DNA of 64,000 nucleotides from a virus (taxonomy: Duplodnaviria > Caudoviricetes): positions 32,001-96,000 of IMG/VR virus record IMGVR_UViG_3300028048_003180. The stretch is one strand, 5' to 3'. The position numbers were made by a program, and so were the translations under genes. Shown in pieces: positions 22,301 through 41,269 of this stretch (within the stretch, counting starts at the first letter, position 1; each line of letters starts with the position of its first letter). Under the pieces are notes generated by a model that searched no databases, was not told the DNA's origin, and saw only the letters and a program-made list of their open reading frames with translations.

Positions 22301-22895
22301 CCAGACGAACTTTATCAACGAACTTACCATATACAACGACAAAGACTATTCAGAGCGGCTCTGCGTGTCATACACAGGCTTGCTCAGGCAGGTTCTGCCG
22401 GGGGCAACGTCACCGGACGACTGGGGGAATGCCGCACCCGGAAGCATAACAAGCGTACCTTTCGCAAAGGCGACAAAGGAGGGGAACGCCTGCTTTACAA
22501 ACGTCCCTATTGAAGAGCTTCCGGCTACAAAGCGGTTCGTTACTGGCACCCAGTCGGCCTACAACCTTCAGGATACGGTGACTGACATATACGGGCAGAA
22601 CCCTGAGAATTTAGTCCTTGACCAGGCCAACCTCATAAACACGGCAGAAGGTTGCCCTGTGCTTGTTAATGAAGGAGTCCCCGTCACAAAAGCCTACGAG
22701 GGGGAGATAAAGATAGACAAGGAAAGCAAGTACGTTGCTTACTGGAATAAGGGTGGGGTCAGGTGTGATTCAGGAACCGCAAGGAGCGTATTCGAGGCGG
22801 CAAGAGAAGCCTGGCGAGCCAGCAGGAGTACGGAATGGGGACTGACACAAGAACAGGCCAGCACACTTGACCTTGAAGACATGGAGGAATTATGA
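16344..22895 (+). CDS. Tail tip / host specificity protein (gpI+gpJ-like) with FN3-like repeats
   Basis: N-terminal ubiquitin-like plus Gly-rich hydrophobic segment, PVVVGK, QVRVVRLT, F.DE.NG.Q, GVTN.EQAW, C-terminal LSAISANMG; start at ATG 16344 after GGAGG. Confidence 0.85.
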   Translation: MAKVIVFNDIFDTRDTNVIDVEKVQTVRDVLYEGKYNVRDYSSQVEVYDPDTGETSYLAIKDDGGQALNVCVKVNGLVKDLSYEIQPADAVVVEILPASSVSKTIEGTLGTIFTVVGGLAMAVGAAMLTVGTGGIGLAVGLMVAGGLLVAAGTYMIMDSLKFDYPDEQKAGKSLTEEQRKKLEGATNQNLIDMPFPVVVGKIDVTPYTVGTQYNELVYNGSSWDEFFGSRMRTTQLLAIGYAPLLLKDIKFDELVSAHNNNNILNGELSYLNNDNDVPGHRPSTFNGKPQVADIESKWRGNKVRMEISQFGRDRSIYPFTVKQQKVDAPLLYCYDGQYAEVANDRHISWQGASLQCGMRTNTIRFSDGIPYKVVVGIDIPGGLWEANNIKEKTDTRYSKIPMNLVVQWRPVYKYISDNGLDSAGAAGDVYDRNRDGYGVLRYSGWRNFSGTSYLDGKWAGPVKQCTYTGNSLSYFVYKDGNTPAYRDGYYGYFVNNSGYTLTGTFHKVQKKTDEATLYREKFLSLIRDWERQHTTRESYINAISPTKGYVTVVNEDGTRAVMPYQAYWKSYIYPEIKESVPDSVRLSLEDQARTYARNKVASQDADWCASHQNYNNGTTWHKMSSQEIIDYSNAGKLNVSFHNEKQKTWVGPGNYIGAPQGYWHTETVRVYDYSSASSDVLIQNGVPYAQDNPYANSIAQIEVNANKGLSAGTGANSNPTWFGVRCFSLGEFSLGKTFYQRDMSEPNFQSALNIGANDVDNAKDEMRFEICAELTQEDILDLLNRNPRSIRAGEDGEVPELLGKTNCIIDSIQVRVVRLTPCYIDNNSGEIKYKYSDVVKWSYLRTYCLDKQRLLDSIDNKTEDAIVGGKAVKIAPIDCSLETFDSRDPDIHEYPTWNTWDILSFRSVPVAKEDEEKLCLLGVEAEPDPLGVMSDSLNKISLTAHAVTPSLRSNYIRYWYTDGIGYWKYDSYDTLETKDSEELYLTFSQRDFRWKRTTAEEFTETPKSVLKKNGTTRVGYYFSEMHNAWDKKWFPAKIEKRQCIQYITDANGEIVYNEAGDPLIEMTRDGNDWIPFIYKEMARNTDSLGRWVASNAFLRTFTEQNSIGQLLGFACGQSLGRNAYFYNSLNDDKFIRYWYDDVSKGKYYYFDTDDTVLDLEHKPVWSDEGDPYDLPQWTYDGWAEGSEIEFRSASLTEIGSGYYYSIRKADNAFNMMALKEAFEYTEAIDIGKSAVGPIPYKCNMYITNQQKALALMQTILVTARAFWFFDEYGRFEVHNDKPKKNPVLMITDENSLQSSNTRDFSRGIAGYHITFQDESNGFQTGEVYVLREGQTRNSHTRDIIDQTINGVTNAEQAWCLGAYMLACSITQKESWSRKLNHVGGSLTIGSLVSVQSSTLMIGTDTSGRIVRLIEDENFIYGFICDLTYDYREEYGQNGENVQGCSIFQAGAKSHSKVVTLRFASAAQQQQGITVETEDPEYAINSGTYANLKGQTNLVLFEKKIIKQTERELEQGNDEETGTKVFTQFIPKPGDVVAFGNVGTITKLGVVYQLSFDEKHHVTAGIYPYYESIYHAGRSLPVLESSMTKLPRNDNAPVDFSATFSDVSAAIDEANKNTAAAINGLVNGGGDSSAVPDAPVMLEAKAFEKEILLKARADGAGLKNSVVEVDWQLFKWTPDVETADENLWDWEDAGTTPTLSGEYVFDRDTDGYPEREDLNGTESAWFFRCRIKNQYGNDSEWSRKMAVQTYRYGTWLLGAPAIVPRVTSRCVTLKLSQPPRAGDREQYGTVRYRIEVMRPDIDENYFKPSIDLNPYAAEENYKDGEGYVISDGTYIQVMPLKGQDSELIENTLYMFRVTAENETSISESSVINVITECDSIRDIVKARETAKEAYISQLSAISANMGCISSGSFNGSDTNFWELSSFIDDFNVNHHEGAFRVGGVDEFLHVIPVDEDGNDITSDTPVSVEPASYRIEFQIGNFKVKSDQTNFINELTIYNDKDYSERLCVSYTGLLRQVLPGATSPDDWGNAAPGSITSVPFAKATKEGNACFTNVPIEELPATKRFVTGTQSAYNLQDTVTDIYGQNPENLVLDQANLINTAEGCPVLVNEGVPVTKAYEGEIKIDKESKYVAYWNKGGVRCDSGTARSVFEAAREAWRASRSTEWGLTQEQASTLDLEDMEEL

Positions 22896-25800
22896 GCTAC
22901 GAAGTAACATTAGGCAATTATCAGAGCGTAATTGGTGCGCTCCCTGCAAATACAGCATCCACCCCTTATGATGTCGTCATTACGGATGGGGAAAACTTGG
23001 CTCCTAATGTCTTAAGGCCTGTGCAAGCGGCGAAAAGATATGTCAATTTGAGTTTTACCCCGGCAACAGTTGAAAGTGATAGCATCCGTAATCTCTTTAG
23101 AGCAGGCAGTGTCACCTTGTACCTCGTATCATGCGACATGTCAAATCTGGACCTCTCGAACGTTACGGACGCGGTTTCTATGTTTGGGAACGTCAGTCTA
23201 AAAACTGTAGTCTTGCCGCCTATGGAGAATTTAACTACGGCAGCCGAAATGTTTTCTTGGTGTGACTCCCTTGAAAGCATTACTTTGCCTGCCATGCCTG
23301 AAGTTACTAATGTGGGCGGCATGTTCCAAGTCTGTCGTGCACTCAAAAACATTACTTTGCCTGCTACTATGCCTAAAGTTACAGCGGCATACAGTATGTT
23401 CCAGGGGTGTGAATCCCTTGAAAGCATTACTTTGCCTGCCATGCCTGAAGTTACTAATGTGAAGGGTATGATTTTACAGTGTTCCGCCCTTAAAAAAGTT
23501 GACATATCAGGGCTCGCCTCAGGAACAAATACGGAAAACCTATTTCGGCTTTGCCCGGCCCTTAAGGAAATAACGGTAGCTACCACCAATTACGAAACTT
23601 ACGTAAGTGCATTGGATGAAAATACTGCGGCAACGCCCTATGACGTAATTATTGCAGATGATACATTCGACGGTGATGTTCTTTTAAATGATATTTTTTC
23701 TTCTATGGTGCAAAGTGGAAGGTTCGTGAAGATTTCTTTTAGTGGAGGAACTTTTGGTGGTTTTACATTATGTTCAGATTATGCTTATCCAGAATCTGAC
23801 TACTTGATAGAATGTGACATGTCATCAATGGCTTGCACGAACCTAATTTATGTTCAGGGTTTTCGCAACTGTAAAAACTTAAAGAAAGTAAAGATGCCTA
23901 ATATTACATCATCAGCCCCATGTACCGCAAATGGATGTTTTTTTGGTTGCGCTTCTCTTACTGAGGTAGAGTTTTTACCAGCAAACTTCGATTTAACTCA
24001 AGACATGTTTTCTCTTTGCAGTTCCCTCGAGCAAGTCGATTTGTCAAAAATACAATTAAAAGATACGGGACGTATGTTCCAAAATTGCACAGCCCTTAAG
24101 GACGTAGTTTTGCCAGATTTGTCAAGTGTATCTTCTGCTGCGTCCATGTTTGTTCGTTGTAGTAATCTTGTCACGGTAGATATATCAACATTAACTGCAG
24201 CCGCTAATGTCTATGATCTTTTTCTTGGTTGCTCCTCGCTTAAAACGGTAGTGTTGCCCGCAAGTATGGCGTCAACGAATGCTAAAGGTATGTTCTACGG
24301 TTGTAGTAGCCTTGAGGATATTACGCTGCCTGTTATGCCTGAAGTTACTAATGCGAATGAAATGTTTTATCGGTGCTCTGCACTCAAGACTGCTGACGTA
24401 TCAGGGATTGCGGCAACTGCAGATGTTTCCAATATATTTCAGGAGTGTACGGTCCTTGAGGAGATAACGGTTACTACAGTCAATTATGAAACAATAGTAA
24501 GTGCATTGAATGAAAACACTGCGGCTACTCCTTATGGCATCGTAATATCAGACGGGGAAAACCTTAGGCCTTCTGCCATGAAGGTGGATGAGACGGGAAG
24601 GTACGTCAACCTAGGTTTTAGGCCAGCCGTTGTTGAAAGACAAGACATTGAAAGTCTTTTCGATTACAACAGCACAATAACTCATCAGTATCTTATATCA
24701 TGCGACATGTCGAACCTTGACATGTCAAATGTTACGTATGCAAAAGGTGCATTCCATTCAAACAAAGGGTTAAAAACTGTTGTCATGCCGTCCTTAAGAA
24801 ATGTATGGAATTCAGCGGAGATGTTCTTAGGGTGTAATGCACTTGAAAACGTTACACTTCCTGACATGTCTAAAGTTACTGATGCAGTAAGCATGTTTTA
24901 CAACTGTCGTTCACTTGAACACGTAGACATAGGGACATTCAGAAAACTGGAAGATGCATTAAATATGTTTTGCAGCTGTCATTCCCTTGTAGAAATTGAC
25001 GCGACAAACCTTACGGAACTCACCGATGCAGAGAGTATGTTCGCAGATTGTGGAGCACTTGAAAACGTTACACTTCCTGACATGTCTAAAATTACTAAAG
25101 CATCATATATGTTTCAAGAATGCCTTTCTCTTGAAAGCATAGACTTATCTCCATTAGAAAATGTCGTAAATGCACGCAGTATGTTTTTTAAATCAGGAAT
25201 TACAACCGTAAACATTTCGGGGATGAACAACCTTAAATATGCAGCAAATATGTTCAAGCAATGTGCTTCCCTGGAAAGCGTTGATATTTCTGGTATGGAA
25301 AATGTTGAGGATGCAGAGGAGATGTTCGCCGTCTGCGAAGCGTTGACGCATGTAAACATATCTGGAATGGGAAACGTTACAAATGCCACAGGTATGTTCT
25401 TTGGAGACCAGACCCTTGAGTCAGCTAATTTGACAAGCCTAGTGAGTGCAACTAATGGAGATGGTATGTTTTCCTCCTGTGTCAGCCTAGAAGAGGTTTC
25501 AGTTCCGCCCGCGTTAACCAACGTCAACGGGTTGTTTATGAACTGTCCAGACTTGACTACCGTAAAAAATTTCAAATGGGATTTCTCCAATATGGAGAAT
25601 ACAACCAACTGTTTTTCCGGCTGCTCCTCCCTTACCCACCTATACTATTACTCTGACAACGACCCTGCCCTTATAATTCCTAATGACGACTGGCTTCTTT
25701 ATTATAAGGGGGGGGCGTCAGCCTCTGAGGGATATACCCTTACGGCTTACGACAGGAAAGGGAATGTGGTACTCTCGGAATCTCTTGGCAGGCCGCAGAT

Positions 25801-26479
25801 TCACCCTATAGGACAGACAAACTCCCTGTTATTCGACACACAGCCAATAGATTGTGCAAACATCATAAAGTCGCCCTACCTCTTCGGAATAAATGACGGC
25901 AAGACGCTGGACGCTGCGGGCGGGACCCTTGCCATACTTGCAAAGGACACTGACAAGATAGTTACGAACATATTTGAAAGCAAGGCTATAAGGGATATGG
26001 TGAGCAACATCACCCCGGCAGGTATAATCCAGATGTACGGCGGAACTACGGCTCCTGAAGGATGGCTCTTTTGTAACGGAGAGGAAGTCCCTACGGCCCA
26101 ATATCCGAGGCTGTACGCCGCAATAGGGAATACGTATGGAACTCCGAAGACGACGGGGAACTTTGTCCTTCCTGATTTCCGCGAATGCGTACCTGTCGGA
26201 GCAGGACAAAGCAACAGGTCAGCCATATCAACCCATGATGTATTCAGCCTCGGCCAATACAAGAATGACTGTATACAGAACATCACTGGATGGGGCACAG
26301 GAACCCCCGTTAATTCTAGTGGTGGGGGAGCATTTTATAGTGACCCGGTAGACTTTGGTGGTTTTGGAGGTGGAAATTACCGTTTTAAGCAGTTACTGTT
26401 CGATGCCTCCCGCCAAGTCCGTACCAGCTCAGTAACACGAACTAAACAGATTGGTACAAACTACATCATTAAGTATTAA
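22892..26479 (+). CDS. Tail fibre / receptor-binding protein with BspA-type LRRs and tail-collar domain
   Basis: Numerous MF..C..L..I.LP repeats; PAGIIQMYGG..APEGWLFCNG...YP.LYAAIG..YG...F.LPD.R collar domain; ends NYIIKY. Confidence 0.9.
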   Translation: MSYEVTLGNYQSVIGALPANTASTPYDVVITDGENLAPNVLRPVQAAKRYVNLSFTPATVESDSIRNLFRAGSVTLYLVSCDMSNLDLSNVTDAVSMFGNVSLKTVVLPPMENLTTAAEMFSWCDSLESITLPAMPEVTNVGGMFQVCRALKNITLPATMPKVTAAYSMFQGCESLESITLPAMPEVTNVKGMILQCSALKKVDISGLASGTNTENLFRLCPALKEITVATTNYETYVSALDENTAATPYDVIIADDTFDGDVLLNDIFSSMVQSGRFVKISFSGGTFGGFTLCSDYAYPESDYLIECDMSSMACTNLIYVQGFRNCKNLKKVKMPNITSSAPCTANGCFFGCASLTEVEFLPANFDLTQDMFSLCSSLEQVDLSKIQLKDTGRMFQNCTALKDVVLPDLSSVSSAASMFVRCSNLVTVDISTLTAAANVYDLFLGCSSLKTVVLPASMASTNAKGMFYGCSSLEDITLPVMPEVTNANEMFYRCSALKTADVSGIAATADVSNIFQECTVLEEITVTTVNYETIVSALNENTAATPYGIVISDGENLRPSAMKVDETGRYVNLGFRPAVVERQDIESLFDYNSTITHQYLISCDMSNLDMSNVTYAKGAFHSNKGLKTVVMPSLRNVWNSAEMFLGCNALENVTLPDMSKVTDAVSMFYNCRSLEHVDIGTFRKLEDALNMFCSCHSLVEIDATNLTELTDAESMFADCGALENVTLPDMSKITKASYMFQECLSLESIDLSPLENVVNARSMFFKSGITTVNISGMNNLKYAANMFKQCASLESVDISGMENVEDAEEMFAVCEALTHVNISGMGNVTNATGMFFGDQTLESANLTSLVSATNGDGMFSSCVSLEEVSVPPALTNVNGLFMNCPDLTTVKNFKWDFSNMENTTNCFSGCSSLTHLYYYSDNDPALIIPNDDWLLYYKGGASASEGYTLTAYDRKGNVVLSESLGRPQIHPIGQTNSLLFDTQPIDCANIIKSPYLFGINDGKTLDAAGGTLAILAKDTDKIVTNIFESKAIRDMVSNITPAGIIQMYGGTTAPEGWLFCNGEEVPTAQYPRLYAAIGNTYGTPKTTGNFVLPDFRECVPVGAGQSNRSAISTHDVFSLGQYKNDCIQNITGWGTGTPVNSSGGGAFYSDPVDFGGFGGGNYRFKQLLFDASRQVRTSSVTRTKQIGTNYIIKY
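23267..23461 (+). repeat. Direct repeat (~48 bp) within LRR array
   Basis: TCCCTTGAAAGCATTACTTTGCCTGCCATGCCTGAAGTTACTAATGTG occurs twice (SLESITLPAMPEVTNV). Confidence 0.85.
26238..26289 (+). repeat. Left 52-bp inverted repeat of tail-fibre tip cassette
   Basis: ATGTATTCAGCCTCGGCCAATACAAGAATGACTGTATACAGAACATCACTGG; exact reverse complement at 26702-26753. Confidence 0.95.
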
Positions 26480-26753
26480 TACTTTATAATGTAATTTATA
26501 CCCAACTCCTTTGTTCTGGTAACTGAACTTGTCCTTACATTTCTAGAAGCGTCAAAGCTAACAAGTCTTCGAGTTCTGGCGTCATCGTTCATAGTAACTT
26601 TAGGGCTCGTATACTCAAGGTCAGTAAGAGAAAAAGCTCCGTAAGGCTCAAAACCAAAAGGAATATTAGCACTGCCTCCCATGCCGTACATCTTAAATCC
26701 GCCAGTGATGTTCTGTATACAGTCATTCTTGTATTGGCCGAGGCTGAATACAT
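26476..26753 (-). other. Silent alternative tail-fibre C-terminus (invertible cassette)
   Basis: Encodes VFSLGQYKNDCIQNITG-[different middle]-FDASRNVRTSSVTRTKELGINYIIKY*, homologous to the expressed tip; no own start or RBS. Confidence 0.88.
26702..26753 (-). repeat. Right 52-bp inverted repeat of tail-fibre tip cassette
   Basis: Perfect reverse complement of 26238-26289. Confidence 0.95.
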
Positions 26754-26814
26754 TTTTTTTTGCTTGACATTGGGATTCTTTGCAAAAAAAATACCACAAT
26801 CTTATGATGGTCTT

Positions 26815-27786
26815 ATGCTATCAATAGTAGTTTTGTTTTGTGAGAAAGACATGTGGCATATACCGGGACTGGTACGCCACATGAAGGAAACCTTCAAGGA
26901 TGAGTACGAGCTTGTGCTTATAGACAACAGGAAGGACAAATCTACGCCTCCGCCTGACGTAGGATGGCCAGTCTATGAGGCATCAGGGGACGGGACTTTC
27001 GAGGGGCGCAGGTTCTCACTGACGAAATGCAGGGGAAAATACGTCTGGTTCGTGGATGCGGACGACATAACCCTTGACTGGAGCGGTTTTGTAGACCTTG
27101 ACAGTCAGGATGCGGACTTCCTGTTCTTCAATGCGGCGGAGCTCAGGGATGAAAGGTTCGGGCCTATGTACAGCGGTGACATTCCTACATTCCTCATGCA
27201 GCAGGGGGATGTACTCCATGAGGATATAAGGCTTGAAGTGAACCTGGATTCGTTCCTTCACGTGTACCTCCCGCTCTGGAACAAGTTCATAAGGCTTGAT
27301 TTTGCAAGGCGGGTCTATGACATGGTGCCTCCCCTTCCCTCTGTCACAGACCACGAAGACTCCCTTATGAGCGCAATGCTCCTCAAACATGCAGAGTCTG
27401 TTTCTGACTGGACGGACAAGACCATTTACATCTATGACTCAAGGACAAGCACTTCATCGGTTGGAACGTCTCAGACGGTCGCGAAGTATAAGGCACTGAA
27501 CAAGGGGCAGCAGAGGCTGCTGGAGTTTGCAAAGGGACACTTTACGGAGAAGGAGTGGTCAGACCTTGGCCTTGACCTGTATTTCTACGGTGACTATTAC
27601 TGGAGGTTCCGGAAAATCCAGTCCTTGCCGGAGAAAGTGGAGGTCTTGAGGTTTATTACCGAAGAGTTCAGTTATGAGAACATACTGGGAATGCTGAAGT
27701 TTGCAGAGCAGTTTGACGAGTACAACCGCCGGATTATCATGGAAAGGTGTATCACCCGTTACTGCCTGAAGGATGTAAAGTTCTAA
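26815..27786 (+). CDS. Glycosyltransferase family 2
   Basis: LSIVV...YELVLIDN...GR.......GKYVWFVDADD (DxD), LWNKFIR, HED; own promoter TTGCAA-17-TATGAT (26780-26808). Confidence 0.88.
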   Translation: MLSIVVLFCEKDMWHIPGLVRHMKETFKDEYELVLIDNRKDKSTPPPDVGWPVYEASGDGTFEGRRFSLTKCRGKYVWFVDADDITLDWSGFVDLDSQDADFLFFNAAELRDERFGPMYSGDIPTFLMQQGDVLHEDIRLEVNLDSFLHVYLPLWNKFIRLDFARRVYDMVPPLPSVTDHEDSLMSAMLLKHAESVSDWTDKTIYIYDSRTSTSSVGTSQTVAKYKALNKGQQRLLEFAKGHFTEKEWSDLGLDLYFYGDYYWRFRKIQSLPEKVEVLRFITEEFSYENILGMLKFAEQFDEYNRRIIMERCITRYCLKDVKF

Positions 27787-28439
27787 ATCGTCCTGCTGAG
27801 GACTCCCAGTACGCGCCCTACCACCATGAACCTGCACTTGTCATACTCGTCAAGCCTTACCGTGTAAGGGGGGTACCTTGTGTTGTCGCAGGCAACGCTC
27901 GTTTCATGGGGAAGTTGCGAAAGCCTTTTCACTGAAACCTGTCCGCCAAGGCTTACCGCATATAGCCCGTTGGCCGTAACTGCTGACGTTTCGGAGCATA
28001 TAACAACGGAGCCGTTGGGAATCGTAGGTTCCATGTAGTCGCCTGAGACCCGGACGCATACCTTGGAGCCGGACGTGGACTCAAGCCATTCGGGTGCAGG
28101 AATCCAGAGTGCCGCCTTCCGCGGGGGAAACAGTTCGTCTGAAAGGACAGGCACGAAAGTCCCGCTTTCAGAGCCGCTGCCTCCTATGACCACAACCCTG
28201 TTGTCTTTCCCTTCAAGAAGGAACTCAACGGAGGTGTCCAGTATCTTGGATATTCTGAGGACTGTATGGGAGTTCGGGTATGAAGCCTGGTGCTTCCAGT
28301 CGGAGAATACGTTTGAGTTAAGTCCGGCCTGCCTTATGAGCTCATTTTTCGTCATGTTCTTGTCATGCAGGAGTTTCTCTATACGCACGATAAACTCCGG
28401 CGGCAGCCTTTCCTTTTTTTGTTTGTGATTTGTTTCCAT
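27783..28439 (-). CDS. CI/LexA-like repressor (XRE HTH + S24 peptidase)
   Basis: HTH (L.RQAGL....FSDWK...YP...LDTSVEFLLEG); VSGDYMEP and VKRL of S24 (Tyr at the usual Ser position). Confidence 0.88.
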   Translation of the reverse strand: METNHKQKKERLPPEFIVRIEKLLHDKNMTKNELIRQAGLNSNVFSDWKHQASYPNSHTVLRISKILDTSVEFLLEGKDNRVVVIGGSGSESGTFVPVLSDELFPPRKAALWIPAPEWLESTSGSKVCVRVSGDYMEPTIPNGSVVICSETSAVTANGLYAVSLGGQVSVKRLSQLPHETSVACDNTRYPPYTVRLDEYDKCRFMVVGRVLGVLSRTI

Positions 28440-29936: not shown

Positions 29937-30359
29937 ATGTCAAAGAACACAAACATGGTTGTCGTGTCAGGCAACATCGTAAGGGACGTCGAGCTCAATG
30001 AGTCACAGACTTTAATCCGCTTCTGCATTGCGAACTCCGAGTCAGTGAAGAAGGACGGCAAGTGGGAGGAGTACACCAACTACTTCGACATCAAGGGATT
30101 CGGCGGTACCGTAAAGCTTGCACCTTACCTTGTGAAAGGTACTAAGGTAATCGTTACCGGATCACTCCATCAGGACAGATGGGAGAAGGACGGCCAGAAG
30201 AACAGCCGCATTGTCATTAACTGTAGCAGCCTTGAGTTCGGAGGCAACGGAAAGAAGAAGGCTGAAAGCCAGGATGAAGGTGCACCAGCCGGGAGTTCAG
30301 GAAGCGGAGAGTTCAAAGAAGACCTCCCCTGGGATGAAAACGAAGATATTCCCTTCTAA
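29937..30359 (+). CDS. ssb: Single-stranded DNA-binding protein
   Basis: N.V.VSGNI.RD, YL.KG..V.VTG.L.QDRWEKDGQK; acidic tail EDIPF. Confidence 0.95.
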   Translation: MSKNTNMVVVSGNIVRDVELNESQTLIRFCIANSESVKKDGKWEEYTNYFDIKGFGGTVKLAPYLVKGTKVIVTGSLHQDRWEKDGQKNSRIVINCSSLEFGGNGKKKAESQDEGAPAGSSGSGEFKEDLPWDENEDIPF

Positions 30360-33823: not shown

Positions 33824-35125
33824 ATGTGTAAGACACGAGAAGAGAAAAACAAGCAGATTGCTCAGACAATAAAGGCTACCTATGAGAAAAGAGCCTCTCA
33901 GGTTTGTCGTGTCTTTACAGTAAAGATTCAGGATAATCAACTGTCTAAAGTTCAAAAAGAACAGTTGAAAATGATTTTTGTAGAAGCAAAGTGGTTAAAA
34001 AATTCAATTCTTGCTTGGATAAAAGAAAATCCAGAAAATAAAGTTTGGGATTACGATACAAAGAAGAAGACCATCATTCATAAAGATAAGGATATGAATG
34101 ATGTCGAAGTTGAATTGAAATATATTCCTGCCTCTGTGAAGCAGTGTGTTCAATCAGAAATAATTTCAAACATCAGGACAATCATTACATTGCAGAAGAA
34201 AGGCTTCCAGTCTGGCGGGCATCTCAAGTTTGTAAAAGAAGTCTCATCTGTCAATTTCAAACAGTATGGGAAAACCCATAAGATAATATCCTCAAAAAGA
34301 ATTAAGTTACAGGGTATATCAGGTTCTCTGATGGTAAACGGACTCAAGCAGTTCTTGAATAAAAATCTTGAATATGCAAATGCAAAATTACTGAATACAC
34401 CGCAGGGGTATTACGTTCAGTTCACGACTTATGTAGATAAATCGAAGATAGCAAATAAACAGACCAATGGTAAGGTTTTAGGTATAGATTTCGGATGCGA
34501 GACATCCTTCACTACAAGTGAGGGTGAAAAAATCGAAGCTTCAGTTCAAGAAAGTGAGCGTATCAAGCGTCTTTCATTAAGAATGAACAAACGTCAAAAG
34601 AAAGGCTCAAAGAACTGGTGGCGGACAGTGCATCTGTTACGAAAAGAATACCAGAAACTTACCAACCAGAAAAACGACCTTGCCAACAAACTTGTTGCAA
34701 AATTCTCTGAATATGACACTGTTATTATTCAGGATGAACAGCTTAGTAATTGGCATAAAGGCAATCACGGGAAGAAAGTTCAGCGCTCAGTATTAGGAAG
34801 AGTAAAATCAAAGCTTCTTCTTAAGTCTAATGTAGTAGTCCTGTCAAAGAATTGTCCTACGACAAAATTGTGTACAAAATGTGGACAATGGCATGATGAA
34901 ATGAGAGTTTGGAACAGGATTTTCAAATGTGACTGCGGAGTTGAAATGGATAGAGATATTCATGCGGCTCAGAATATGGTCTGGTTTTATGAAAATAAAG
35001 TAGGTGTGGGACGCACCAATTTCAAGCGTGTGGAGATTAAAGCACTTGTATCAGAGGCTCTTGCTTCTGGTATCAAACTCGAATCTGTGAAGCACGAAGC
35101 TGACATGGCTTTAGCCTGTCAGTAG
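33824..35125 (+). CDS. tnpB: TnpB RNA-guided endonuclease
   Basis: LGIDFG (RuvC-I), IIQDE (RuvC-II region), TTKLCTKCG..FKCDCG zinc finger, DRDIHAAQN (RuvC-III). Confidence 0.92.
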   Translation: MCKTREEKNKQIAQTIKATYEKRASQVCRVFTVKIQDNQLSKVQKEQLKMIFVEAKWLKNSILAWIKENPENKVWDYDTKKKTIIHKDKDMNDVEVELKYIPASVKQCVQSEIISNIRTIITLQKKGFQSGGHLKFVKEVSSVNFKQYGKTHKIISSKRIKLQGISGSLMVNGLKQFLNKNLEYANAKLLNTPQGYYVQFTTYVDKSKIANKQTNGKVLGIDFGCETSFTTSEGEKIEASVQESERIKRLSLRMNKRQKKGSKNWWRTVHLLRKEYQKLTNQKNDLANKLVAKFSEYDTVIIQDEQLSNWHKGNHGKKVQRSVLGRVKSKLLLKSNVVVLSKNCPTTKLCTKCGQWHDEMRVWNRIFKCDCGVEMDRDIHAAQNMVWFYENKVGVGRTNFKRVEIKALVSEALASGIKLESVKHEADMALACQ

Positions 35126-35180: not shown

Positions 35181-38100
35181 CTAAAGCTCAATCCTCTGGG
35201 TGATTATGTCCTTCAGTTCCTGAGAGTGGGTAATGAGTACGGTCTTGTCCGCACCTCCCTCCTCATGGACAGTCTCTATCATCTTCAGGTACTTAAGCTT
35301 TGAGTCATGGTCGAGTGCTCCGTCAGTCTCGTCAAGGAACCTTGTCCTGAAACCTGCCGACTGGGAGCGGCTCCTTATGATTGAGAAGGCATGGTAGAGG
35401 GCTTCCTTTATCCATGTCCCCTCACCTCCTGAAACCCACTCCAAAGGCCTTGTGACGCTTGTTTCCGTGTTTTCAACTAATATGTCAAAAACTTCGATGT
35501 AAGCCCCTGTAGAGCCCTTCCTGAGCGTCTGGAAGGATATTTTGAACTTGTCTCCGTATGCTGATTCCAGTATGCGGTTCGTTATGTCTGCAACGTCAGG
35601 AGCGGCGGCTTCAAGCTCCAGTGCCTGTATGCCGTTTGCTCCGAAGGCCCGCTCAAGAAACTCCCATTCAGTCTGCTCGTGCACAAGGGTTTCCCTTTCT
35701 TCCTTTAGCTGCTCATTAGTTTCTTTTGCTTCTTTTAGCTGGGCAGCTTCCTGTGTTATCTTGCCTGACTCTACGAGCAGTTCCTGGAGTTCACCTTCGG
35801 CAGAGGTAAGGGAATCTTCTACGGACTTCATCTTTCCGGCAACGTCAGGGCCCAAACCTTCCTTCTGCTTCTTCAGCTGGGACAGTTCCTTTTCAAGCGT
35901 TGATGTCTTCTTGGTGTATACTGACAGGTATTCGTTCAGGGCATTTAAGTCTGTAGACTCGGCTTCCATCTTCAGGAGGGAGGCTTCGTCCGGGATTCCG
36001 AGTTCAGAGATTTCTTTTTCGTCCTTTTCGTTCTCTCTCTCCAGCCACTTGACCCCTCGGTTGGTGTCGGCCAATTCTTTGGCTATAAGGTCATGGGCTT
36101 CCTGTGCTGCAAGGAGCATTGACTCTGCCTTTTCAAGAGCCTTGCGGTTCTTTACAGCCTGCTTTTCCAGTTCTGCAACCTTTTCGGCAGGGAGTTTCTG
36201 TCCACAGGTAGGGCACGTGTCTGCTATGTCAGTGACCAGGTTCCTCTTTGCCGTAACGTCCGCCTTCGCGTCCGCAAGATTCGTGTAGGCTTCCTTTTCC
36301 TTTGCTTCCAGGCTTCTTACCTCTTCCCTGTTGGCATCCAGGAGTGGCTGCCTTTCACTTATTCTATTGCGTATGGAATCTGCCTTTTCGAGAAGAGGCT
36401 TTATTTTTTCGTACTTGCCGAAGTTTTCCTTCTTACTTGTGTAGGTTGCAAGGAGCCCCTTCGTTTCAAGGAGCTGCGATTCCTTCTCGCGGATTTTACT
36501 GTCTACATCAGTTCCTGAATCCGTTTTCTTCAGGCCGTCAAGCTCTGCATTGAGTTTTTTGATTTCATCCCGCAGGACCTTTATGCGCTTGTCAACTTCC
36601 TTTCCGTGAGCAAGGACTTCCTTTATCATTGCGTCGTAATCCGAATCGTCAATGAGGGTTTCCTTTTCCGTAATCTTGGCCTTGAGTTCCTTTGACTTCT
36701 CCCTTGAGGCGGCTGATATTTCAGAGGCAGATTCAGTGCCGAGCAGGGAGTTGAAGAAGCTTTTCTTTTCACCTTTTGTCGCTGATGCAATGTCAGTTAC
36801 GCTTCCCGTGTTTCCCTTTGTGTAGAATACGGTGCGCAGGAACAGTTCTATTGAACCGAATGTGTTGACCACCCATTCATTGTACTGGTCAACGTTACCG
36901 TCCAATCCGTCAACAGGGTTGAGGTTGTCGGGGTTTTCCCCTGTGAAGGCAAACGCTTTTACCTTGCCGCTTTTGTTCTTGCCGTCGATGTCAATTCTTA
37001 TGCGGTAGTATGTCCCGCCTTCGTCAACGTAAAGGAGTTCCCTGTATGAGTCACGGAGGAAGAAGTGGTCTTGTAAACGTCCGTTCCTTGTAAGCATACG
37101 GAGGTACGGCTGGCAGTTCTCAATAAGGGTGGAATTATGACTAATATATCCACTTGAATAAAACTGATGAGTAGAGGGAATTGTAAAGTCGTAAACAATT
37201 TTCTTATCATTAAATACTTCTTTTTTTGTAATTTTTGAAAAGAAATAATTCTTTGAAAGTATTAATTTGAACAAACTGTTTAGTTCTTTTACTTCTGGTA
37301 TTTCACTGTTATCAGACAATGATTTCAGTAATTCAAGTTTTTTATAGGAGATATTATATTTTTTTTGGAAAAGCCGACTCGGTAAAGGTGTAATATATAT
37401 CTTGCCATTTTCGGAGTGAAAATGTCCATTATGTAAAACAGTTAGTTTTTTTCTTATATAAGGATTTATATAAGGAATAATATCTTTATTTGGATTAACA
37501 TCCTTCGTTCTTTTATAATTGTATTTTAATGACTTATTTATTAAACAAATCAAATTTTCAACATTCAAAGAACGGACTACAATTTTGTGATAAATCCAAT
37601 CATAAGATTTTACCTTTTTTAACCCATGAGTAGATACTATTCCAAAGTTAAGTAACATATTTTGAACCGAATTCGCAATTTGCTTACTGGCAGTTGAAAA
37701 TTCAAAATAATCGTTACATAAACATCCGTCACAGTCAAACAATGCTGTTAAAAAAGCGACTTGCTCTTCTTTCGTGCCTTGTAAAATACAATTCGGAATA
37801 ATTTTGTAACGGGCAGTTGTAAGAGCTTCGTTAAAAATATATTCCAAAAACTGTCTTATTACGGAAGAGAAAATTCTAAGATTTGAATCTTTCTGAAGAT
37901 TTGTAGGCTTGGAAATATTTATATTAAACAATGATTTGACTGTTTTAATATAATCATCTGCTATCTTTTTATTTTTCGTTGAAAACTGGATAGAGTTTCC
38001 TGTATGAGATCCGTTTGCAATGTAATATCCCAAAAATTTTGCCAACTGAATTGACATCTTTGTAGGAAGATTCACCTTATTTGTACTTCTCCACATAAAT

Positions 38101-38999
38101 GGAGAAAAATCAAAGCTATAGGATTTTTCAGGAAAAACATTCATATTTCTTGAAACGCATACATAATCATCACAAGATATGTCTTTTAATTTTTTGAATT
38201 CAAAAGTACAGTTAGGAGTAAAAATTAAAACAGGATGTTCAGGAGTTCCTTCTATTTCCATCCCTAATGAATTTGTGATTTTTATAGTCTCATTTACTTC
38301 TTCTGAATAAAAATGAGAGCTTTCTGCAAAAACATCATTTGCAGAAAGTAATTCCTTGTTAAAGTTTTGAAATCCTCTTATCTTATTGTCATAAGAACCT
38401 ATTGTTTCAAAACCTTTTTTAGAAAGTATTAAAGTCTCTCCTGTTACACACTTCCCGCGTCCGCACTGACCCGCGAGCGCAACTACGCCAGGAACGAAAT
38501 TCCTCAAGTCCAGTGTGAACTCATCCCTTCCAGTCCCCTCCTTTATTCCTATGCTCCCCATGAGTTTTACCTCAAGAAGCGTGAAGGTGTGGTGGGGTGC
38601 AGCGTACTTAATGCTGAGGCTGTCCTCTATCTCCTTGAGCTTGGAGTATACAGTGTCACTGGCCTTGAGCTTGTTGACCTTTATATATTCGGAGAGCTTC
38701 TCTGCCTGTGTCTTTGCCCTGATTATTTCAGGAGCCCTTACATGGGCGGAGTCCTTTACGTCGTATACAACCTTGACTGACTTTACGGCATCGTTTTTTC
38801 TCAATGCGGCAGAAATCGTCTGATAGGGAATGTTTTTCTTCTGCTCTGCCGTGCAGGACAAAAGAAGCTTGATGTTCCTCTCTGTCTTGTCTGACATTTG
38901 TGATTCCGTCCAGCTGTCAAGGATTCCCTGATTTTCTGTTATGTCAACAGTGTAATTCCTGAATACCGGGAATCCAAGTTCTATTTCCTTTATGTCCAT
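35181..38999 (-). CDS. sbcC: SbcC/Rad50-like ATPase containing an intein
   Basis: Walker A GQCGRGK|S, coiled coils, CPTCG zinc hook, SGGE signature, FLDETDGALD, ITH. Confidence 0.92.
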   Translation of the reverse strand: MDIKEIELGFPVFRNYTVDITENQGILDSWTESQMSDKTERNIKLLLSCTAEQKKNIPYQTISAALRKNDAVKSVKVVYDVKDSAHVRAPEIIRAKTQAEKLSEYIKVNKLKASDTVYSKLKEIEDSLSIKYAAPHHTFTLLEVKLMGSIGIKEGTGRDEFTLDLRNFVPGVVALAGQCGRGKCVTGETLILSKKGFETIGSYDNKIRGFQNFNKELLSANDVFAESSHFYSEEVNETIKITNSLGMEIEGTPEHPVLIFTPNCTFEFKKLKDISCDDYVCVSRNMNVFPEKSYSFDFSPFMWRSTNKVNLPTKMSIQLAKFLGYYIANGSHTGNSIQFSTKNKKIADDYIKTVKSLFNINISKPTNLQKDSNLRIFSSVIRQFLEYIFNEALTTARYKIIPNCILQGTKEEQVAFLTALFDCDGCLCNDYFEFSTASKQIANSVQNMLLNFGIVSTHGLKKVKSYDWIYHKIVVRSLNVENLICLINKSLKYNYKRTKDVNPNKDIIPYINPYIRKKLTVLHNGHFHSENGKIYITPLPSRLFQKKYNISYKKLELLKSLSDNSEIPEVKELNSLFKLILSKNYFFSKITKKEVFNDKKIVYDFTIPSTHQFYSSGYISHNSTLIENCQPYLRMLTRNGRLQDHFFLRDSYRELLYVDEGGTYYRIRIDIDGKNKSGKVKAFAFTGENPDNLNPVDGLDGNVDQYNEWVVNTFGSIELFLRTVFYTKGNTGSVTDIASATKGEKKSFFNSLLGTESASEISAASREKSKELKAKITEKETLIDDSDYDAMIKEVLAHGKEVDKRIKVLRDEIKKLNAELDGLKKTDSGTDVDSKIREKESQLLETKGLLATYTSKKENFGKYEKIKPLLEKADSIRNRISERQPLLDANREEVRSLEAKEKEAYTNLADAKADVTAKRNLVTDIADTCPTCGQKLPAEKVAELEKQAVKNRKALEKAESMLLAAQEAHDLIAKELADTNRGVKWLERENEKDEKEISELGIPDEASLLKMEAESTDLNALNEYLSVYTKKTSTLEKELSQLKKQKEGLGPDVAGKMKSVEDSLTSAEGELQELLVESGKITQEAAQLKEAKETNEQLKEERETLVHEQTEWEFLERAFGANGIQALELEAAAPDVADITNRILESAYGDKFKISFQTLRKGSTGAYIEVFDILVENTETSVTRPLEWVSGGEGTWIKEALYHAFSIIRSRSQSAGFRTRFLDETDGALDHDSKLKYLKMIETVHEEGGADKTVLITHSQELKDIITQRIEL
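37134..38450 (-). mobile_element. Intein with LAGLIDADG homing endonuclease (439 aa)
   Basis: Begins CVTGET, TPEHP block B, FLGYYIANG / FLTALFDCDG, ends VYDFTI...ISHN before Ser; AT-rich island. Confidence 0.95.
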
Positions 39000-39265: not shown

Positions 39266-39988
39266 CTATAAAGTTACTTCTATCCAACCTCCGCAGTGCG
39301 TCTCCCCGAAGTTCTTCGGAGGCACTGAGCCGGAGTACCAGCACGGGGTTTTCAACCCCTTCACTTTCATCCTTCCGTGTATGTGTCCGCAGGCTATGTA
39401 GTCAGCCTCCATACTGTCGAGTACGGAGAGCGGCATTACCGTTCCGCCGTCCCCTACTTCCACACCGTTCTGGTAGGTACACCCTTCTATCTCGCCGTGG
39501 AACATTACTATGTGATGCTTTTCACCGTTATCCTTCTTTGAGCCTTCAGCTATATCCTTGTACCACTTCTGGATCTGGGAGTGTTTCTCCTCAATATCCT
39601 TTCCGCTGAAAAAGGACAGCCTTGGCTCAGGGATGACAGTCAGTTTTACATCGGGAAAAATAAGGTAGCTTCCGGCATCCTTACAGTCATAGACTTTTAC
39701 ATTGGGCATTATGGAGAAGCACTCAAGGGAGCCGTCCGCCTCATGCGTCGGGGTTCCGTATATCATGTAGCACTCCACGACCTCCTGCAAGTCAAAGAAA
39801 GCCCTGAGTATGCGGTTGAACCCGCTCTGTGCGGAGTTTGAGATGGTGAAGTCCCAGAAGTCTCCGGCAAAGAGGATGAAGTCCACACCACCCTCAAGGC
39901 ATCTTTCCTTGAGGGTGGTGAGCACCTTGAGGGTTTCCTCAAGGCGTGATGTGGAAGCATGTATGTCAGCTATGTGTATGAACGTCAT
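39266..39988 (-). CDS. sbcD: SbcD/Mre11-like metallophosphoesterase (nuclease domain only)
   Basis: HIADIH, AGDFWD, GTPTHE, FHG, CGHIH, YSGS....FGE. Confidence 0.9.
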   Translation of the reverse strand: MTFIHIADIHASTSRLEETLKVLTTLKERCLEGGVDFILFAGDFWDFTISNSAQSGFNRILRAFFDLQEVVECYMIYGTPTHEADGSLECFSIMPNVKVYDCKDAGSYLIFPDVKLTVIPEPRLSFFSGKDIEEKHSQIQKWYKDIAEGSKKDNGEKHHIVMFHGEIEGCTYQNGVEVGDGGTVMPLSVLDSMEADYIACGHIHGRMKVKGLKTPCWYSGSVPPKNFGETHCGGWIEVTL

Positions 39989-39992
39989 TCAA

Positions 39993-40370
39993 CTACCCCA
40001 TGAGGTAATAATAATTGCCGTCAACTTTTATGAGCCGTCCCCTTATTTCGTAATTGCAGAGGAAGGCTTTCAGCGAGCTTGCGTCAAGTATCTCATCCTC
40101 AATCATCACATGGAGTGTCTGTCCGAAGTCTATGCACTTTTCTTCGCTGTCAAAGATAAAGAGCAGAGGTATGTTGTCGTCGCTGTCACCAATCATCAGC
40201 AGGTACATCCCGTTGTTTATTGTGGCCTGTACAACAACAGTTGTCTCATGTCTTTTTCCTGGCTGGACAATCTTTGACGGCCATGACTTTATAACCTTTA
40301 CAGGGTCACAGAAACAGACGATTCCAGCCAACAAAATAACGATTAGTGCTATAAGCTTTTTCATTTGCAA
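39993..40370 (-). CDS. Hypothetical exported/membrane-anchored protein
   Basis: MKKLIALIVILLAGIVCFC signal-like N-terminus. Confidence 0.55.
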   Translation of the reverse strand: MQMKKLIALIVILLAGIVCFCDPVKVIKSWPSKIVQPGKRHETTVVVQATINNGMYLLMIGDSDDNIPLLFIFDSEEKCIDFGQTLHVMIEDEILDASSLKAFLCNYEIRGRLIKVDGNYYYLMG

Positions 40371-40591: not shown

Positions 40592-41269
40592 TTATGAAGC
40601 TTTTTTGCCCTTGCAGGCTTCGATATATTTCTGGATTTTTTCCAAGTCATTGTCCTTGATGGCCTGTTCAGCCCCGGCCTTCATCTTCGGGCGGTCGTCA
40701 AGAGCACCGTCCTTAAGGAACTTCTGAAGGTCGATTATTGCCTGTGTGCCTCCTTCTACCTGTAGCGGTGTCCCGGCGGGGAGTGCCCATGCAGGGAGTG
40801 CGGGAGGGTCCCACTTGAAGTATTTCTTGTCCTTTGTCTGGCCAGTGTACTTTCCTTTTTTTCCGTCAGGAGCGATGACTGCCCATGATTCCTTGAGGTT
40901 ATACAGATAGCGGCCTATGCCGTAGAGTACAGCACTTCTCTTGATGGCTCCTGAAATTCCGCCCTTTACGGCCTCAATGTCAGTGCTGTCTGCGCCGTCA
41001 GTGCGGGAGATCCACTCAAATGAGCCGTCCTCGTGCTGAACCCGGATGGAGAGCGTACAAAGATATGCGTCGCCTTCCTTGCGGATTGACGTTTGCCAGC
41101 CGTCAGGACCGCAGACTTCATCAAGCCTGTCCTGCACAGCCCTTGAGGTGATGTATGCCAATGCCTTTCCCCAGAGCTTGCCGTCTTTCTCACCGCAACT
41201 CTGCAAACGCCAATCAATGTCGTCGGCAGGAAACGGTTCCTTCAGTTTTGCCATGTCTTCAACTTTCAT
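40592..41269 (-). CDS. Rad52/Rad22-family (Sak-like) single-strand annealing protein
   Basis: L..PF...DI.WR, LAYI.SRAVQDRLD.V.G...W, KGGISGA.KR.AV.YGIGRYLY. Confidence 0.92.
   Translation of the reverse strand: MKVEDMAKLKEPFPADDIDWRLQSCGEKDGKLWGKALAYITSRAVQDRLDEVCGPDGWQTSIRKEGDAYLCTLSIRVQHEDGSFEWISRTDGADSTDIEAVKGGISGAIKRSAVLYGIGRYLYNLKESWAVIAPDGKKGKYTGQTKDKKYFKWDPPALPAWALPAGTPLQVEGGTQAIIDLQKFLKDGALDDRPKMKAGAEQAIKDNDLEKIQKYIEACKGKKAS

What the first reader, a model, noticed from the sequence alone, without database searches (positions are those of the whole stretch)
26238..26753. Minimal invertible tail-fibre tip switch with no adjacent invertase
Seen: perfect 52-bp inverted repeats (26238-26289 and 26702-26753) enclose two head-to-head alternative C-termini of the LRR tail fibre: ...NITG-WGTGTPVNSSGGGAFYSDP...-FDASRQVRTSSVTRTKQIGTNYIIKY and ...NITG-GFKMYGMGGSANIPFGFEPYGAF...-FDASRNVRTSSVTRTKELGINYIIKY. 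Their stop codons overlap in one TTAA at the centre of the palindrome AAGTATTAATACTT (26471-26484). Inversion would swap the tip in frame. Established: Mu Gin and P1 Cin invert kilobase-sized fibre segments using an adjacent serine invertase. Here the segment is only 516 bp and no recombinase gene is recognisable in the window. Inference: host-range phase variation driven in trans or by the phage's own Sak-type homologous recombination across the long repeats.
Basis: partly seen in the sequence, partly recalled or inferred. Interest (0 to 1): 0.75.

Follow-up and report, generated by a model that had tools for sequence, protein, structure and literature searches.

The report
Invertase-less flip switch for phage fibre tip
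A 111-kb prophage of a rumen-type Treponema keeps a spare, backwards-facing tip for its tail fibre between two perfect 52-base inverted repeats, so flipping 516 bp would swap the host-recognition tip in frame; this is a familiar kind of phage host-range switch, unusual mainly because the prophage encodes no enzyme dedicated to flipping it.

Summary
Perfect 52-nt inverted repeats (26238-26289, 26702-26753) enclose two convergent alternative C-termini of a 1195-aa LRR/collar tail fibre, and their stop codons overlap. An in-silico flip gives an open 1207-aa fibre ending in tip B.

The swapped part is the variable receptor-binding insert of a T4 gp12-like collar/head domain. Both tips are under purifying selection: in the shared last 26 codons pS is 0.95 and pN 0.13. 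The repeat arms are identical at every silent site and evolve in concert, so they have recombined recently.

The same convergent, stop-overlapping layout occurs in two other Treponema genomes and in a metagenomic phage lineage that shares the outer cassette border. The whole att-bounded prophage has one site-specific recombinase, a tRNA-Lys integrase 57 kb away. It has no serine or Piv-type invertase. It does encode a Rad52/Sak annealing protein, SSB and a phosphoesterase.

No second assembly exists, so inversion itself is not shown. My best reading is a real low-frequency switch driven by homology. A recombinase acting in trans, or a static spare cassette, remain live rivals.

Published precedents exist (Mu/P1/Min, Rin shufflon, an invertase-less Bifidobacterium prophage locus). 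This scan has also noted similar invertase-less collar-tip switches in other genomes. It is a new member of a known kind.

The parts
22892..26479 (+). Side tail-fibre gene in its present (tip A) form, 1195 aa: BspA-type LRR/DUF285 repeats, then a collar domain and the variable tip
   Evidence: ORF and translation. Pfam LRR_5 2.3e-58, DUF285 5.1e-31, Collar 1.8e-19 at aa 1044-1100. It follows the TMP, NlpC/P60 and a 2206-aa Phage-tail_3 protein.
26021..26237 (+). Constant part of the gp12-like collar domain, upstream of the switch
   Evidence: Pfam Collar. Profile A3 hits the solved short tail fibres 9cuy (2.9e-21) and T4 gp12 1ocy (3.3e-14). Foldseek gives 5iv5/1ocy at probability 1.0. The AF2 model has pLDDT 86-95 over model residues 31-90 (P0001 aa 1040-1099).
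26238..26289 (+). Left arm of the inverted repeat. It encodes (D)VFSLGQYKNDCIQNITG, the last conserved block before the hypervariable insert.
   Evidence: 100% complementary. One search shows the block is conserved across the family. One search finds 0 differences in 16 codons.
26290..26479 (+). Tip A: 62 aa unique to the expressed form, plus the stop codon
26471..26484 (.). Central palindrome AAGTATTAATACTT, where the two stop codons overlap in TTAA
   Evidence: The same 4-nt overlap of convergent ends is seen in G190, G272 and L146.
26476..26701 (-). Tip B: a silent 74-aa alternative tip plus stop, read on the minus strand
   Evidence: For the last 26 codons against tip A, pS is 0.95 and pN 0.13. 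B-like tips end full-length fibres elsewhere, e.g. P0145 at 45-51% identity.
26702..26753 (-). Right arm of the inverted repeat (5' end of cassette B)
   Evidence: The outer border (KKN|V; flank CCAATGTCAAGCAAAAAAAA) is shared with the L146/L147 lineage.
26754..26761 (+). T-run directly after the right arm. With the 52-bp stem it forms a terminator-like structure in either orientation.
   Evidence: The RNA fold shows the full stem, z = -10. The T-run is conserved in L146. Function is inferred.
26764..26808 (+). Promoter-like sites for the downstream gene (TTGACA-17-AAAAAT; TTGCAA-17-TATGAT)
26851..27786 (+). Gene in the position where an invertase would be expected. It is a GT2-type glycosyltransferase (a candidate for lysogenic conversion), not a recombinase.
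   Evidence: Weak Pfam Glycos_transf_2 hit. DADD motif visible. Atlas neighbours are GT2 clusters at 0.97-0.98. No PHROG match.
27783..28439 (-). CI-like repressor (HTH plus Peptidase_S24), which marks the lysogeny module
29937..30359 (+). Phage SSB
40592..41269 (-). Rad52/Sak-type single-strand annealing protein
   Evidence: PF04098 at 2.6e-21.
39266..39988 (-). Calcineurin-like metallophosphoesterase near the annealing protein (one 125-aa ORF, 39993-40370, lies between them), a possible nuclease partner
   Evidence: PF00149 at 3.2e-13. The partner role is inferred.

Best explanation
This is a genuine two-cassette switch for the receptor-binding tip of a side tail fibre, in a 111-kb temperate siphovirus-like prophage of a rumen-type Treponema. 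The constant fibre (LRR repeats plus the first half of a T4 gp12-like collar domain) ends in a conserved block encoded by the left repeat arm. Behind it lie tip A (62 aa, expressed) and, head-to-head with it, silent tip B (74 aa), which starts with the same block encoded by the right arm. A reciprocal exchange between the 52-bp arms inverts 516 bp and fuses tip B in frame (shown in silico). The likely effect is a change in which surface glycan the virion binds (inferred from gp12 homology). No dedicated invertase is encoded, so I take the exchange to be homology-driven and infrequent. Candidates are host RecA, or replication-associated recombination helped by the phage's Rad52/Sak protein, SSB and phosphoesterase. 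The same process would keep the arms identical by gene conversion. Shown here: the anatomy, the frame, selection on both tips, concerted evolution of the arms, the recurrence of the layout, and the absence of an invertase. Inferred: that flipping happens now, its rate, its catalyst, and the receptor change.
For: The perfect 52-nt repeat is unique in the window. The in-frame flip gives a 1207-aa fibre. Silent tip B is conserved as protein while its silent sites are saturated (17 of 17.8 synonymous sites differ, pN 0.13), yet the 16 codons inside the arms show 0 differences. Arms within a phage are more alike than orthologous arms between phages: 52/52 here and 43/52 in L146, against 34-38/52 between the two. 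The outer cassette border is shared by both lineages, so the identity comes from homogenisation and not from recent creation of the cassette. Convergent tips with the same 4-nt stop overlap occur in Treponema genomes G190 and G272 and in L146-L148 from several samples. Further short ORFs that begin at or near the conserved block look like silent cassettes, although their loci were not examined (P0149, P0150, P0154, P0163). The repeat lies at different places in the domain, with different sequences, in G000, G190 and G272. That is not what one conserved recombinase site would give. There is no PF00239 or PF01548 hit in the record. There is one PF00589 hit, the integrase, and the rest of the prophage up to attR holds no recombinase family. 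The att core and attL region show no likeness to the arm (score 8 against a shuffle mean of 8.7). The closest host relative, G001, and G272 have no serine recombinase at all. The phage encodes a Rad52-type protein, SSB and a phosphoesterase. [quoted passage not shown] Inversion at 85- and 333-bp repeats independent of the local recombinase and of RecA is documented in S. pneumoniae (PMC6620402).
Against: Only one orientation has been seen, and only one assembly exists. The repeat was not found in the viral, genome or JGI metagenome collections. Fifty-two bp is near the lower limit for efficient RecA- or SSAP-dependent exchange. Single-strand annealing alone cannot invert a segment between inverted repeats, because the exposed strands are identical and not complementary (my reasoning). 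Relatives have much poorer arms (16 perfect nt in G190; 83% over 53 nt in L146). That fits either a short site-specific core or decaying, inactive switches better than homology-driven flipping. One gene-conversion event would be enough to explain the perfect arms.
Confidence: 0.4

Rival explanations
1. The switch is real but is flipped by a site-specific recombinase supplied in trans. Candidates are the prophage's own tRNA-Lys tyrosine integrase, a host Xer-like or other tyrosine recombinase, or an invertase of a co-resident element. It would act on a short core inside the 52-bp arms.
For: In G190 the gene next to the silent cassette is a tyrosine recombinase, and the arms share only a 16-nt perfect core, which is the size expected for a site-specific crossover. 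L146 keeps a 15-nt perfect inner core (CAGAATATTACTGGT) in arms that are otherwise 83% alike. The arm here contains a perfect 10-bp palindrome, CTGTATACAG, and an imperfect TGTATT...AATACA dyad, which could be binding sites (about 4% by chance, my estimate). Trans-acting invertases and an invertase-less prophage locus are published (PMC6109161). Treponema genomes carry 4-5 tyrosine recombinases each.
Against: The G190 recombinase sits beside a tmRNA gene, so it is that prophage's integrase and not a dedicated invertase. It has no homologue in this prophage. The att core here is unlike the arm. The integrase has the long arm-binding N-terminus of integrases, not the armless build of Rin/Tsr/Fim invertases (PMC6109161). 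The arms lie at different positions with unrelated sequences in three Treponema phages. A short core does not explain 52 nt of identity at every silent site.
Confidence: 0.3
2. The locus is static on ecological time-scales. Tip B is a silent spare, or a relic of an ancestral switch, that is no longer flipped regularly. The arms were homogenised by a single gene conversion, and the cassette matters only as raw material for rare evolutionary exchange of fibre tips.
For: Every assembly of this and related loci shows a single arrangement. Arms have decayed in relatives. No invertase is present. Earlier notes of this scan describe locked or decayed copies of similar switches in other phages (unchecked).
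Against: Tip B has no stop or frameshift and shows strong purifying selection despite saturated silent sites. The exact convergent geometry has been kept across lineages whose tips are only 35-50% identical. No minus-strand promoter was found upstream of tip B, and a tip without its collar half is unlikely to fold, so selection on it implies periodic expression as part of the fibre (inference).
Confidence: 0.25
3. Assembly artefact: a fold-back or chimeric join created the inverted repeat.
For: The contig comes from a short-read metagenome assembly (k141).
Against: The interiors differ and encode two distinct, intact, homologous tips. The same layout appears in independent genomes and samples. 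The repeat (52 nt) is shorter than the assembler's largest k-mer.
Confidence: 0.02

Closest known systems
Invertible fibre segments of phage Mu (G/Gin), P1/P7 (C/Cin), e14 (Pin) and p15B (Min)
   Same: A constant fibre N-terminal part is fused in frame to one of two or more alternative C-terminal parts by inversion between inverted repeats. The system is carried by a temperate phage, and the outcome is a change of host range.
   Different: Those systems use an adjacent serine invertase, short gix/cix sites and a Fis enhancer, and kilobase segments that also carry fibre-assembly genes (established knowledge). Here there is no serine recombinase in the whole prophage. The segment is 516 bp with no chaperone gene, the arms are 52 bp, and only the distal insert of a gp12-like collar domain is exchanged.
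Rin shufflon, and the second, invertase-less ~500-bp inversion locus of Bifidobacterium prophages (Mavrich et al. 2018, PMC6109161)
   Same: The second locus is a ~500-bp segment holding a small gene plus the 3' end of the neighbouring structural gene. It has no flanking recombinase and was proposed to rely on an enzyme in trans. This is the closest published match in layout and in the open question it raises.
   Different: Rin has an armless tyrosine invertase and 11-bp rix sites. The second locus recombines at an 8-bp sequence and was seen in both orientations in related prophages. Here the arms are 52 bp and perfect, no second orientation is known, the host is a spirochaete, and the protein is a recognisable collar/gp12-type fibre.
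Gene-altering programmed inversions as defined by Milman, Yelin and Kishony 2023 (PMC9881135)
   Same: The locus has all four predictive sequence attributes. Tail-fibre, phage-tail and tail-collar-domain genes are among their enriched or long-read-confirmed targets.
   Different: Their confirmation rests on variation within a species or within reads, which is not available here. Most of their loci have a recombinase nearby.
T4 gp12 short tail fibre receptor-binding domain (1OCY, 5IV5) and the related short tail fibre 9CUY
   Same: The fibre's last ~170 aa match this domain by profile and by fold. The NITG...FDASR...NYIIK pattern is shared with 9CUY.
   Different: gp12 is a fixed, single-form baseplate fibre of a lytic myovirus. 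Here the domain caps an LRR side fibre of a siphovirus-like prophage, and its variable half exists in two exchangeable copies.
S. pneumoniae SpnIII (ivr) hsdS inversions at long repeats (De Ste Croix et al. 2019, PMC6620402)
   Same: Inversion at 85- and 333-bp inverted repeats continues without the local tyrosine recombinase and without RecA. This is a precedent for flipping of coding cassettes without a dedicated recombinase.
   Different: It is a bacterial restriction-specificity locus, not a phage fibre. Its repeats are longer, and a dedicated recombinase exists for the 15-bp repeat.

Membership tests
Gin/Cin/Pin/Min serine-invertase fibre switches | Serine (resolvase/invertase family) recombinase gene next to or inside the segment | tested here: not met
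   PF00239 finds nothing in the 108.7-kb record, and the control genomes do ring. The neighbouring gene is a GT2 glycosyltransferase.
Gin/Cin/Pin/Min serine-invertase fibre switches | 26-bp gix/cix/hix-type crossover sites and a Fis-bound enhancer | not tested
   No reference site sequences were on hand in the tools, and I did not type them from memory.
Gin/Cin/Pin/Min serine-invertase fibre switches | Alternative fibre C-termini fused in frame to a constant N-terminal part by inversion | tested here: met
   (1195-aa and 1207-aa forms).
Gin/Cin/Pin/Min serine-invertase fibre switches | Each alternative carries its own fibre-assembly (U/U'-type) gene inside the segment | tested here: not met
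   The 412 nt between the arms hold only the two tips.
Rin-type tyrosine-invertase shufflon | Armless tyrosine recombinase flanking the variable cassettes | tested here: not met
   The only PF00589 match is the 384-aa integrase at the attL end, which has SAM-like N-terminal domains.
Rin-type tyrosine-invertase shufflon | Short asymmetric rix site (TTCCCTAACCC) upstream of each cassette | tested here: not met
   The motif is absent from the arm sequence printed. The site is as given in PMC6109161.
Gene-altering programmed inversion (Milman et al. 2023) | Repeat of 44 bp or more; distance between the two CDSs of 2588 bp or less; repeat positions matching convergent orientation; strong length asymmetry | tested here: met
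   52-bp repeat; the CDSs overlap by 4 nt; the arms lie inside both CDSs; 1195 aa against 71-107 aa. I judged this qualitatively and did not run their model.
Gene-altering programmed inversion (Milman et al. 2023) | Both orientations present within a species or within reads | not testable with these tools
   Only a single contig carries the locus, and no read data are available.
Phage tail collar / T4 gp12-type receptor-binding domain | Collar domain followed by a variable insert and a C-terminal strand that returns to the collar | tested here: met
   PF07484 at 1.8e-19. Profile against PDB: 9cuy 2.9e-21, 1ocy 3.3e-14. Foldseek 1ocy/5iv5 at probability 1.0. The AF2 model is confident for the collar and for the last strand, and below pLDDT 50 for the insert.
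Phage tail collar / T4 gp12-type receptor-binding domain | Homotrimer; binds a surface glycan | not tested
   No multimer model or binding data. This is inferred from the family.

The most novel reading that the evidence does not exclude
A programmed host-range switch that needs no site-specific recombinase. The phage would keep a 52-bp, perfectly homogenised inverted repeat as a substrate for general recombination (host RecA, or its own Rad52-type annealing protein acting at replication forks), giving low-frequency reversible tip exchange. The same stem, followed by a T-run, would serve as an orientation-independent terminator of the fibre operon. If so, 'invertase-less' fibre switches in gut and rumen phages would be a distinct, homology-driven class and not orphans of lost invertases.
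Probability: 0.3. Interest if true: 0.65.

Novelty: new member of a known kind. Interest (0 to 1): 0.4.

Why it matters
Invertible fibre tips are a classic way for temperate phages to hedge their bets on host range. This one extends the kind to phages of Treponema, a major but hardly cultured rumen and gut spirochaete group for which almost no phage biology exists. It also extends it to the gp12-type collar/head domain, where only about 60-75 residues need to be exchanged.

The locus gives a clean, small test case (516 bp, a fully bounded prophage, a single recombinase) for a recurring open question: who flips the many fibre switches that lack an invertase? If homology-driven exchange is enough, such switches could be recognised from sequence alone by concerted evolution of the arms. 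Metagenomic host-range predictions for these phages would then have to allow for two receptor specificities per genome.

Tried and rejected
**Searches for a second copy or the other orientation (all empty)**
- blastn of 25400-27400 against 50,697 phage records gave no match.
- A back-translated search of IMG/VR with the fibre end found nothing.
- An exact search for the arm in viral contigs, and degenerate arm patterns in genome and JGI metagenome contigs, found nothing.
- Protein searches with the collar plus tip, in both the near and the shorter length classes, found nothing above 46% identity.
- The search with tip B found only the window's own 71-aa ORF.
- Exact look-ups of the fibre and of the GT2 gene each returned one contig.
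- The integrase is present in four other samples, but only on 1.8-2.6-kb contigs that do not reach the fibre.

**Hidden invertase**
- The gene downstream of the switch is a glycosyltransferase.
- Ten early-region proteins of 187-494 aa gave no recombinase family.
- PF01548 was negative.
- The G190 recombinase has no homologue here.

**Integrase moonlighting**
- The att core (25 bp, the 3' end of tRNA-Lys) and the attL region are not similar to the arm.

**Relatives**
- L003, L010 and L014 have no inverted cassette; L003 carries two tandem collar-tip genes instead.
- Among the 30 best collar loci from 401 Spirochaetota genomes, none has convergent tips.

**Steps not taken**
- No complex prediction was run.
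- The monomer model is poor over the variable part, so nothing about tip structure is claimed.
Full report
**What is there**

The window is bases 32001-96000 of a 108,709-bp IMG/VR provirus record, and it is identical to part of ENA contig ERZ27252073:k141_223054. One search confirms perfect 52-nt inverted repeats at 26238-26289 and 26702-26753. Apart from the imperfect central palindrome made by the two tip ends, this is the only inverted repeat of 22 nt or more in the window.

The plus-strand ORF 22892-26479 encodes a 1195-aa protein with BspA-type LRR/DUF285 repeats and a Phage Tail Collar domain at aa 1044-1100. It follows a lambda-like tail-tip module: tape measure, NlpC/P60 and a 2206-aa Phage-tail_3 protein. 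It is therefore a side tail fibre.

On the minus strand, 26476-26799 reads the same 17 residues that the arm encodes, followed by a different 74-aa tip. The two stop codons overlap in TTAA inside AAGTATTAATACTT at 26471-26484.

**What the swapped piece is**

A profile of the last ~186 residues and 19 relatives hits solved short tail fibres: 9cuy at 2.9e-21, and T4 gp12 (1ocy) at 3.3e-14. An AlphaFold model, confident for the collar and the final strand but poor for the insert, matches gp12 by Foldseek at probability 1.0. Isolated T-even phages of the RB49 type align over all 160 residues of the query (collar plus tip A) at about 32% identity.

In the family alignment the arm encodes the last conserved block (HD.[YF].LGQ[FY]K[DN]D..Q..). 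A hypervariable insert follows, and then the conserved end R.G..T..K..G.NYIIKY. The switch therefore exchanges only the variable, presumably receptor-binding half of a gp12-like domain, together with the strand that closes it. Tip-B-like sequences end full-length fibres elsewhere (P0145 at 45-51% identity, also P0148 and P0147). Tip B is therefore a normal tip type.

**Evidence that the spare tip is kept for use, and that the arms recombine**

In the 26 C-terminal codons shared by the two tips, 17 of 17.8 synonymous sites differ (pS 0.95), while pN is 0.13. In the 16 codons inside the arms there is no difference at all. The tips are therefore old and both constrained as protein, whereas the arms have been homogenised.

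A metagenomic lineage (L146-L148; found on five contigs, the four listed coming from four samples) has the same design and the same outer border. Its silent ORF begins MSSKKN|VYTLGEF, against ...AKKN|VFSLGQY here, and the flank CCAATGTCAAGCAAAAAAAA is shared. Arm identities are 52/52 within this phage, 43/52 within L146 and 34-38/52 between the two. That is concerted evolution: the arms of one genome exchange sequence with each other. No minus-strand promoter was found upstream of tip B.

**Recurrence**

A search of 338 genomes of the host genus found collar-tip matches in 11. Two of them have convergent tip pairs with the same 4-nt stop overlap:
- G190, with a 287-aa fibre and a 103-aa silent ORF.
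- G272, with a 286-aa fibre and a 132-aa silent ORF.

The perfect arm stretches are 16 nt in G190 and 34+19 nt in G272. In each genome they lie at the outer 5' end of the silent cassette, but at different places in the domain (FYLPD; YAAIG..SAHF) and with unrelated sequences. None of the 30 best loci from 401 other Spirochaetota genomes shows the layout. Short ORFs that begin at or near the conserved block (P0149, P0150, P0154, P0163) suggest further silent cassettes in metagenomes; I did not check these individually.

**Who could flip it**

The host is a Treponema. The flanking MTHFR gene is 85% identical to that of a sheep-rumen Treponema MAG, and the next 60 or so hits are almost all Treponema or Spirochaetaceae. 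The prophage is bounded by a 25-bp direct repeat, which is the 3' end of a tRNA-Lys(CTT) gene. This gives an element of about 111 kb.

Recombinase content of the prophage:
- PF00239 (serine recombinases) has no match.
- PF01548 (Piv/IS110) has no match.
- PF00589 has one match, the 384-aa integrase at the attL end, 57 kb from the switch.
- The 2.2 kb beyond the record's right end holds no recombinase family.
- The gene next to the switch is a GT2 glycosyltransferase.

The att core and attL region are no more similar to the arm than shuffled sequence is. In G190 the gene next to the silent cassette is a tyrosine recombinase, but it lies beside a tmRNA gene and is therefore that prophage's integrase. 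It has no homologue here. The closest host relative and G272 have no serine recombinase at all, and each carries 4-5 tyrosine recombinases. The phage does encode a Rad52/Sak-type annealing protein, an SSB and, one ORF from the annealing gene, a metallophosphoesterase.

**Reading**

The anatomy, the selection pattern, the concerted evolution and the conserved geometry make a functional tip-exchange device the best explanation. For the catalyst I favour homology-driven exchange (0.4), for four reasons:
- The arms are long and perfect, with sharp borders.
- They are homogenised within each genome.
- Their position and sequence are not conserved between phages.
- No dedicated enzyme is present.

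Recombinase- and RecA-independent inversion at 85- to 333-bp repeats has a published precedent (PMC6620402).

Against this, 52 bp is short, annealing alone cannot invert, and the relatives' poor arms look more like short site-specific cores or decaying switches. A recombinase acting in trans (0.3) and a static spare cassette (0.25) therefore stay open. An assembly artefact is very unlikely (0.02).

**Comparison and novelty**

The device works like Mu G, P1 C and p15B Min, but it fails their defining features: no serine invertase and no chaperone genes in the segment. It also lacks the armless tyrosine invertase and the rix site of the Rin shufflon.

The nearest published match is the second, invertase-less ~500-bp inversion locus of Bifidobacterium prophages (PMC6109161). 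Tail-fibre, phage-tail and tail-collar-domain genes are listed targets of gene-altering programmed inversions, and this locus shares their sequence attributes (PMC9881135). Earlier notes of this scan also describe invertase-less collar-tip switches in other phage genomes (unchecked leads).

I therefore class it as a new member of a known kind. It is, as far as I found, the first described for Treponema phages. Its main value is as a compact test case for how invertase-less fibre switches are flipped.

Noticed in passing
window 33824-35125 (+); also L005:17164-18354 (about G000 7164-8354): Two TnpB-like genes (OrfB_IS605 plus Cas12f1-like_TNB, 433 and 396 aa) lie inside the prophage, whose host flank carries flagellin, FlgK, FliW and CsrA genes. 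A 2025-26 paper describes prophage TnpB-derived TldR repressors of flagellin (PMC13418256). Whether these copies are nucleases or repressors was not examined.
   Followed up: no
window 35181-38999 (-): A 1272-aa early protein carries an intein (Intein_splicing, LAGLIDADG_3) according to the precomputed Pfam hits.
   Followed up: no
window 52141-53628 (-): A ComM/YifB-like Mg-chelatase AAA+ protein (PF01078 at 2.8e-69) lies inside the prophage early region. ComM helicases act in branch migration during recombination, so it might belong to the phage recombination toolkit.
   Followed up: no
L005:9889-9913 and L144:6876-6900; record ends: The true prophage ends are marked by a 25-bp att repeat (GGAGTTCGATCCTCCCATCGCTCAA, the 3' end of tRNA-Lys in a three-tRNA cluster). 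The IMG/VR record starts exactly at the integrase ATG and stops about 2.2 kb short of attR.
   Followed up: yes
window 26399-26556: In the 26 shared C-terminal codons of the two tips, 95% of synonymous sites differ, which is more than the roughly 75% expected at saturation (about p = 0.04 on 18 sites, my estimate). Tip A uses GC-ending codons and tip B AT-ending codons. This may be selection against a long perfect palindrome at the head-to-head junction, or a foreign origin for tip B.
   Followed up: partly
window 26238-26769; L146:1840-1890: The 52-bp stem is followed at once by a T-run and then a TTGACA -35 box for the next gene. The T-run and the TGTCAA/TTGACA flank are conserved in the L146 lineage. 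The repeat may double as an orientation-independent terminator of the fibre operon.
   Followed up: partly
window 26851-27786 (+): A GT2 glycosyltransferase with its own promoter sits between the fibre switch and the CI-like repressor. It is a typical lysogenic-conversion position and could alter the very glycan that the fibre tips read.
   Followed up: partly
L003:6001-12070: A related phage (fibre end 46% identical) carries two collar-tip proteins in tandem on the same strand (1701 aa and 315 aa) instead of an inverted spare. This is an alternative way of carrying two tips.
   Followed up: partly
L005:5131-8202: The host encodes a 1023-aa LRR_5 (BspA-type) protein 1.8 kb from attL. The phage fibre's LRR part may derive from, or mimic, host surface proteins.
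   Followed up: no
L112 (G272:C78) end at 16274; L107 (G272:C36): The G272 contig ends 95 nt beyond the right arm of its convergent tip pair. A contig break at that point might reflect mixed orientations in that assembly. Comparison with contig C36 showed only weak similarity, so this stays unresolved.
   Followed up: partly
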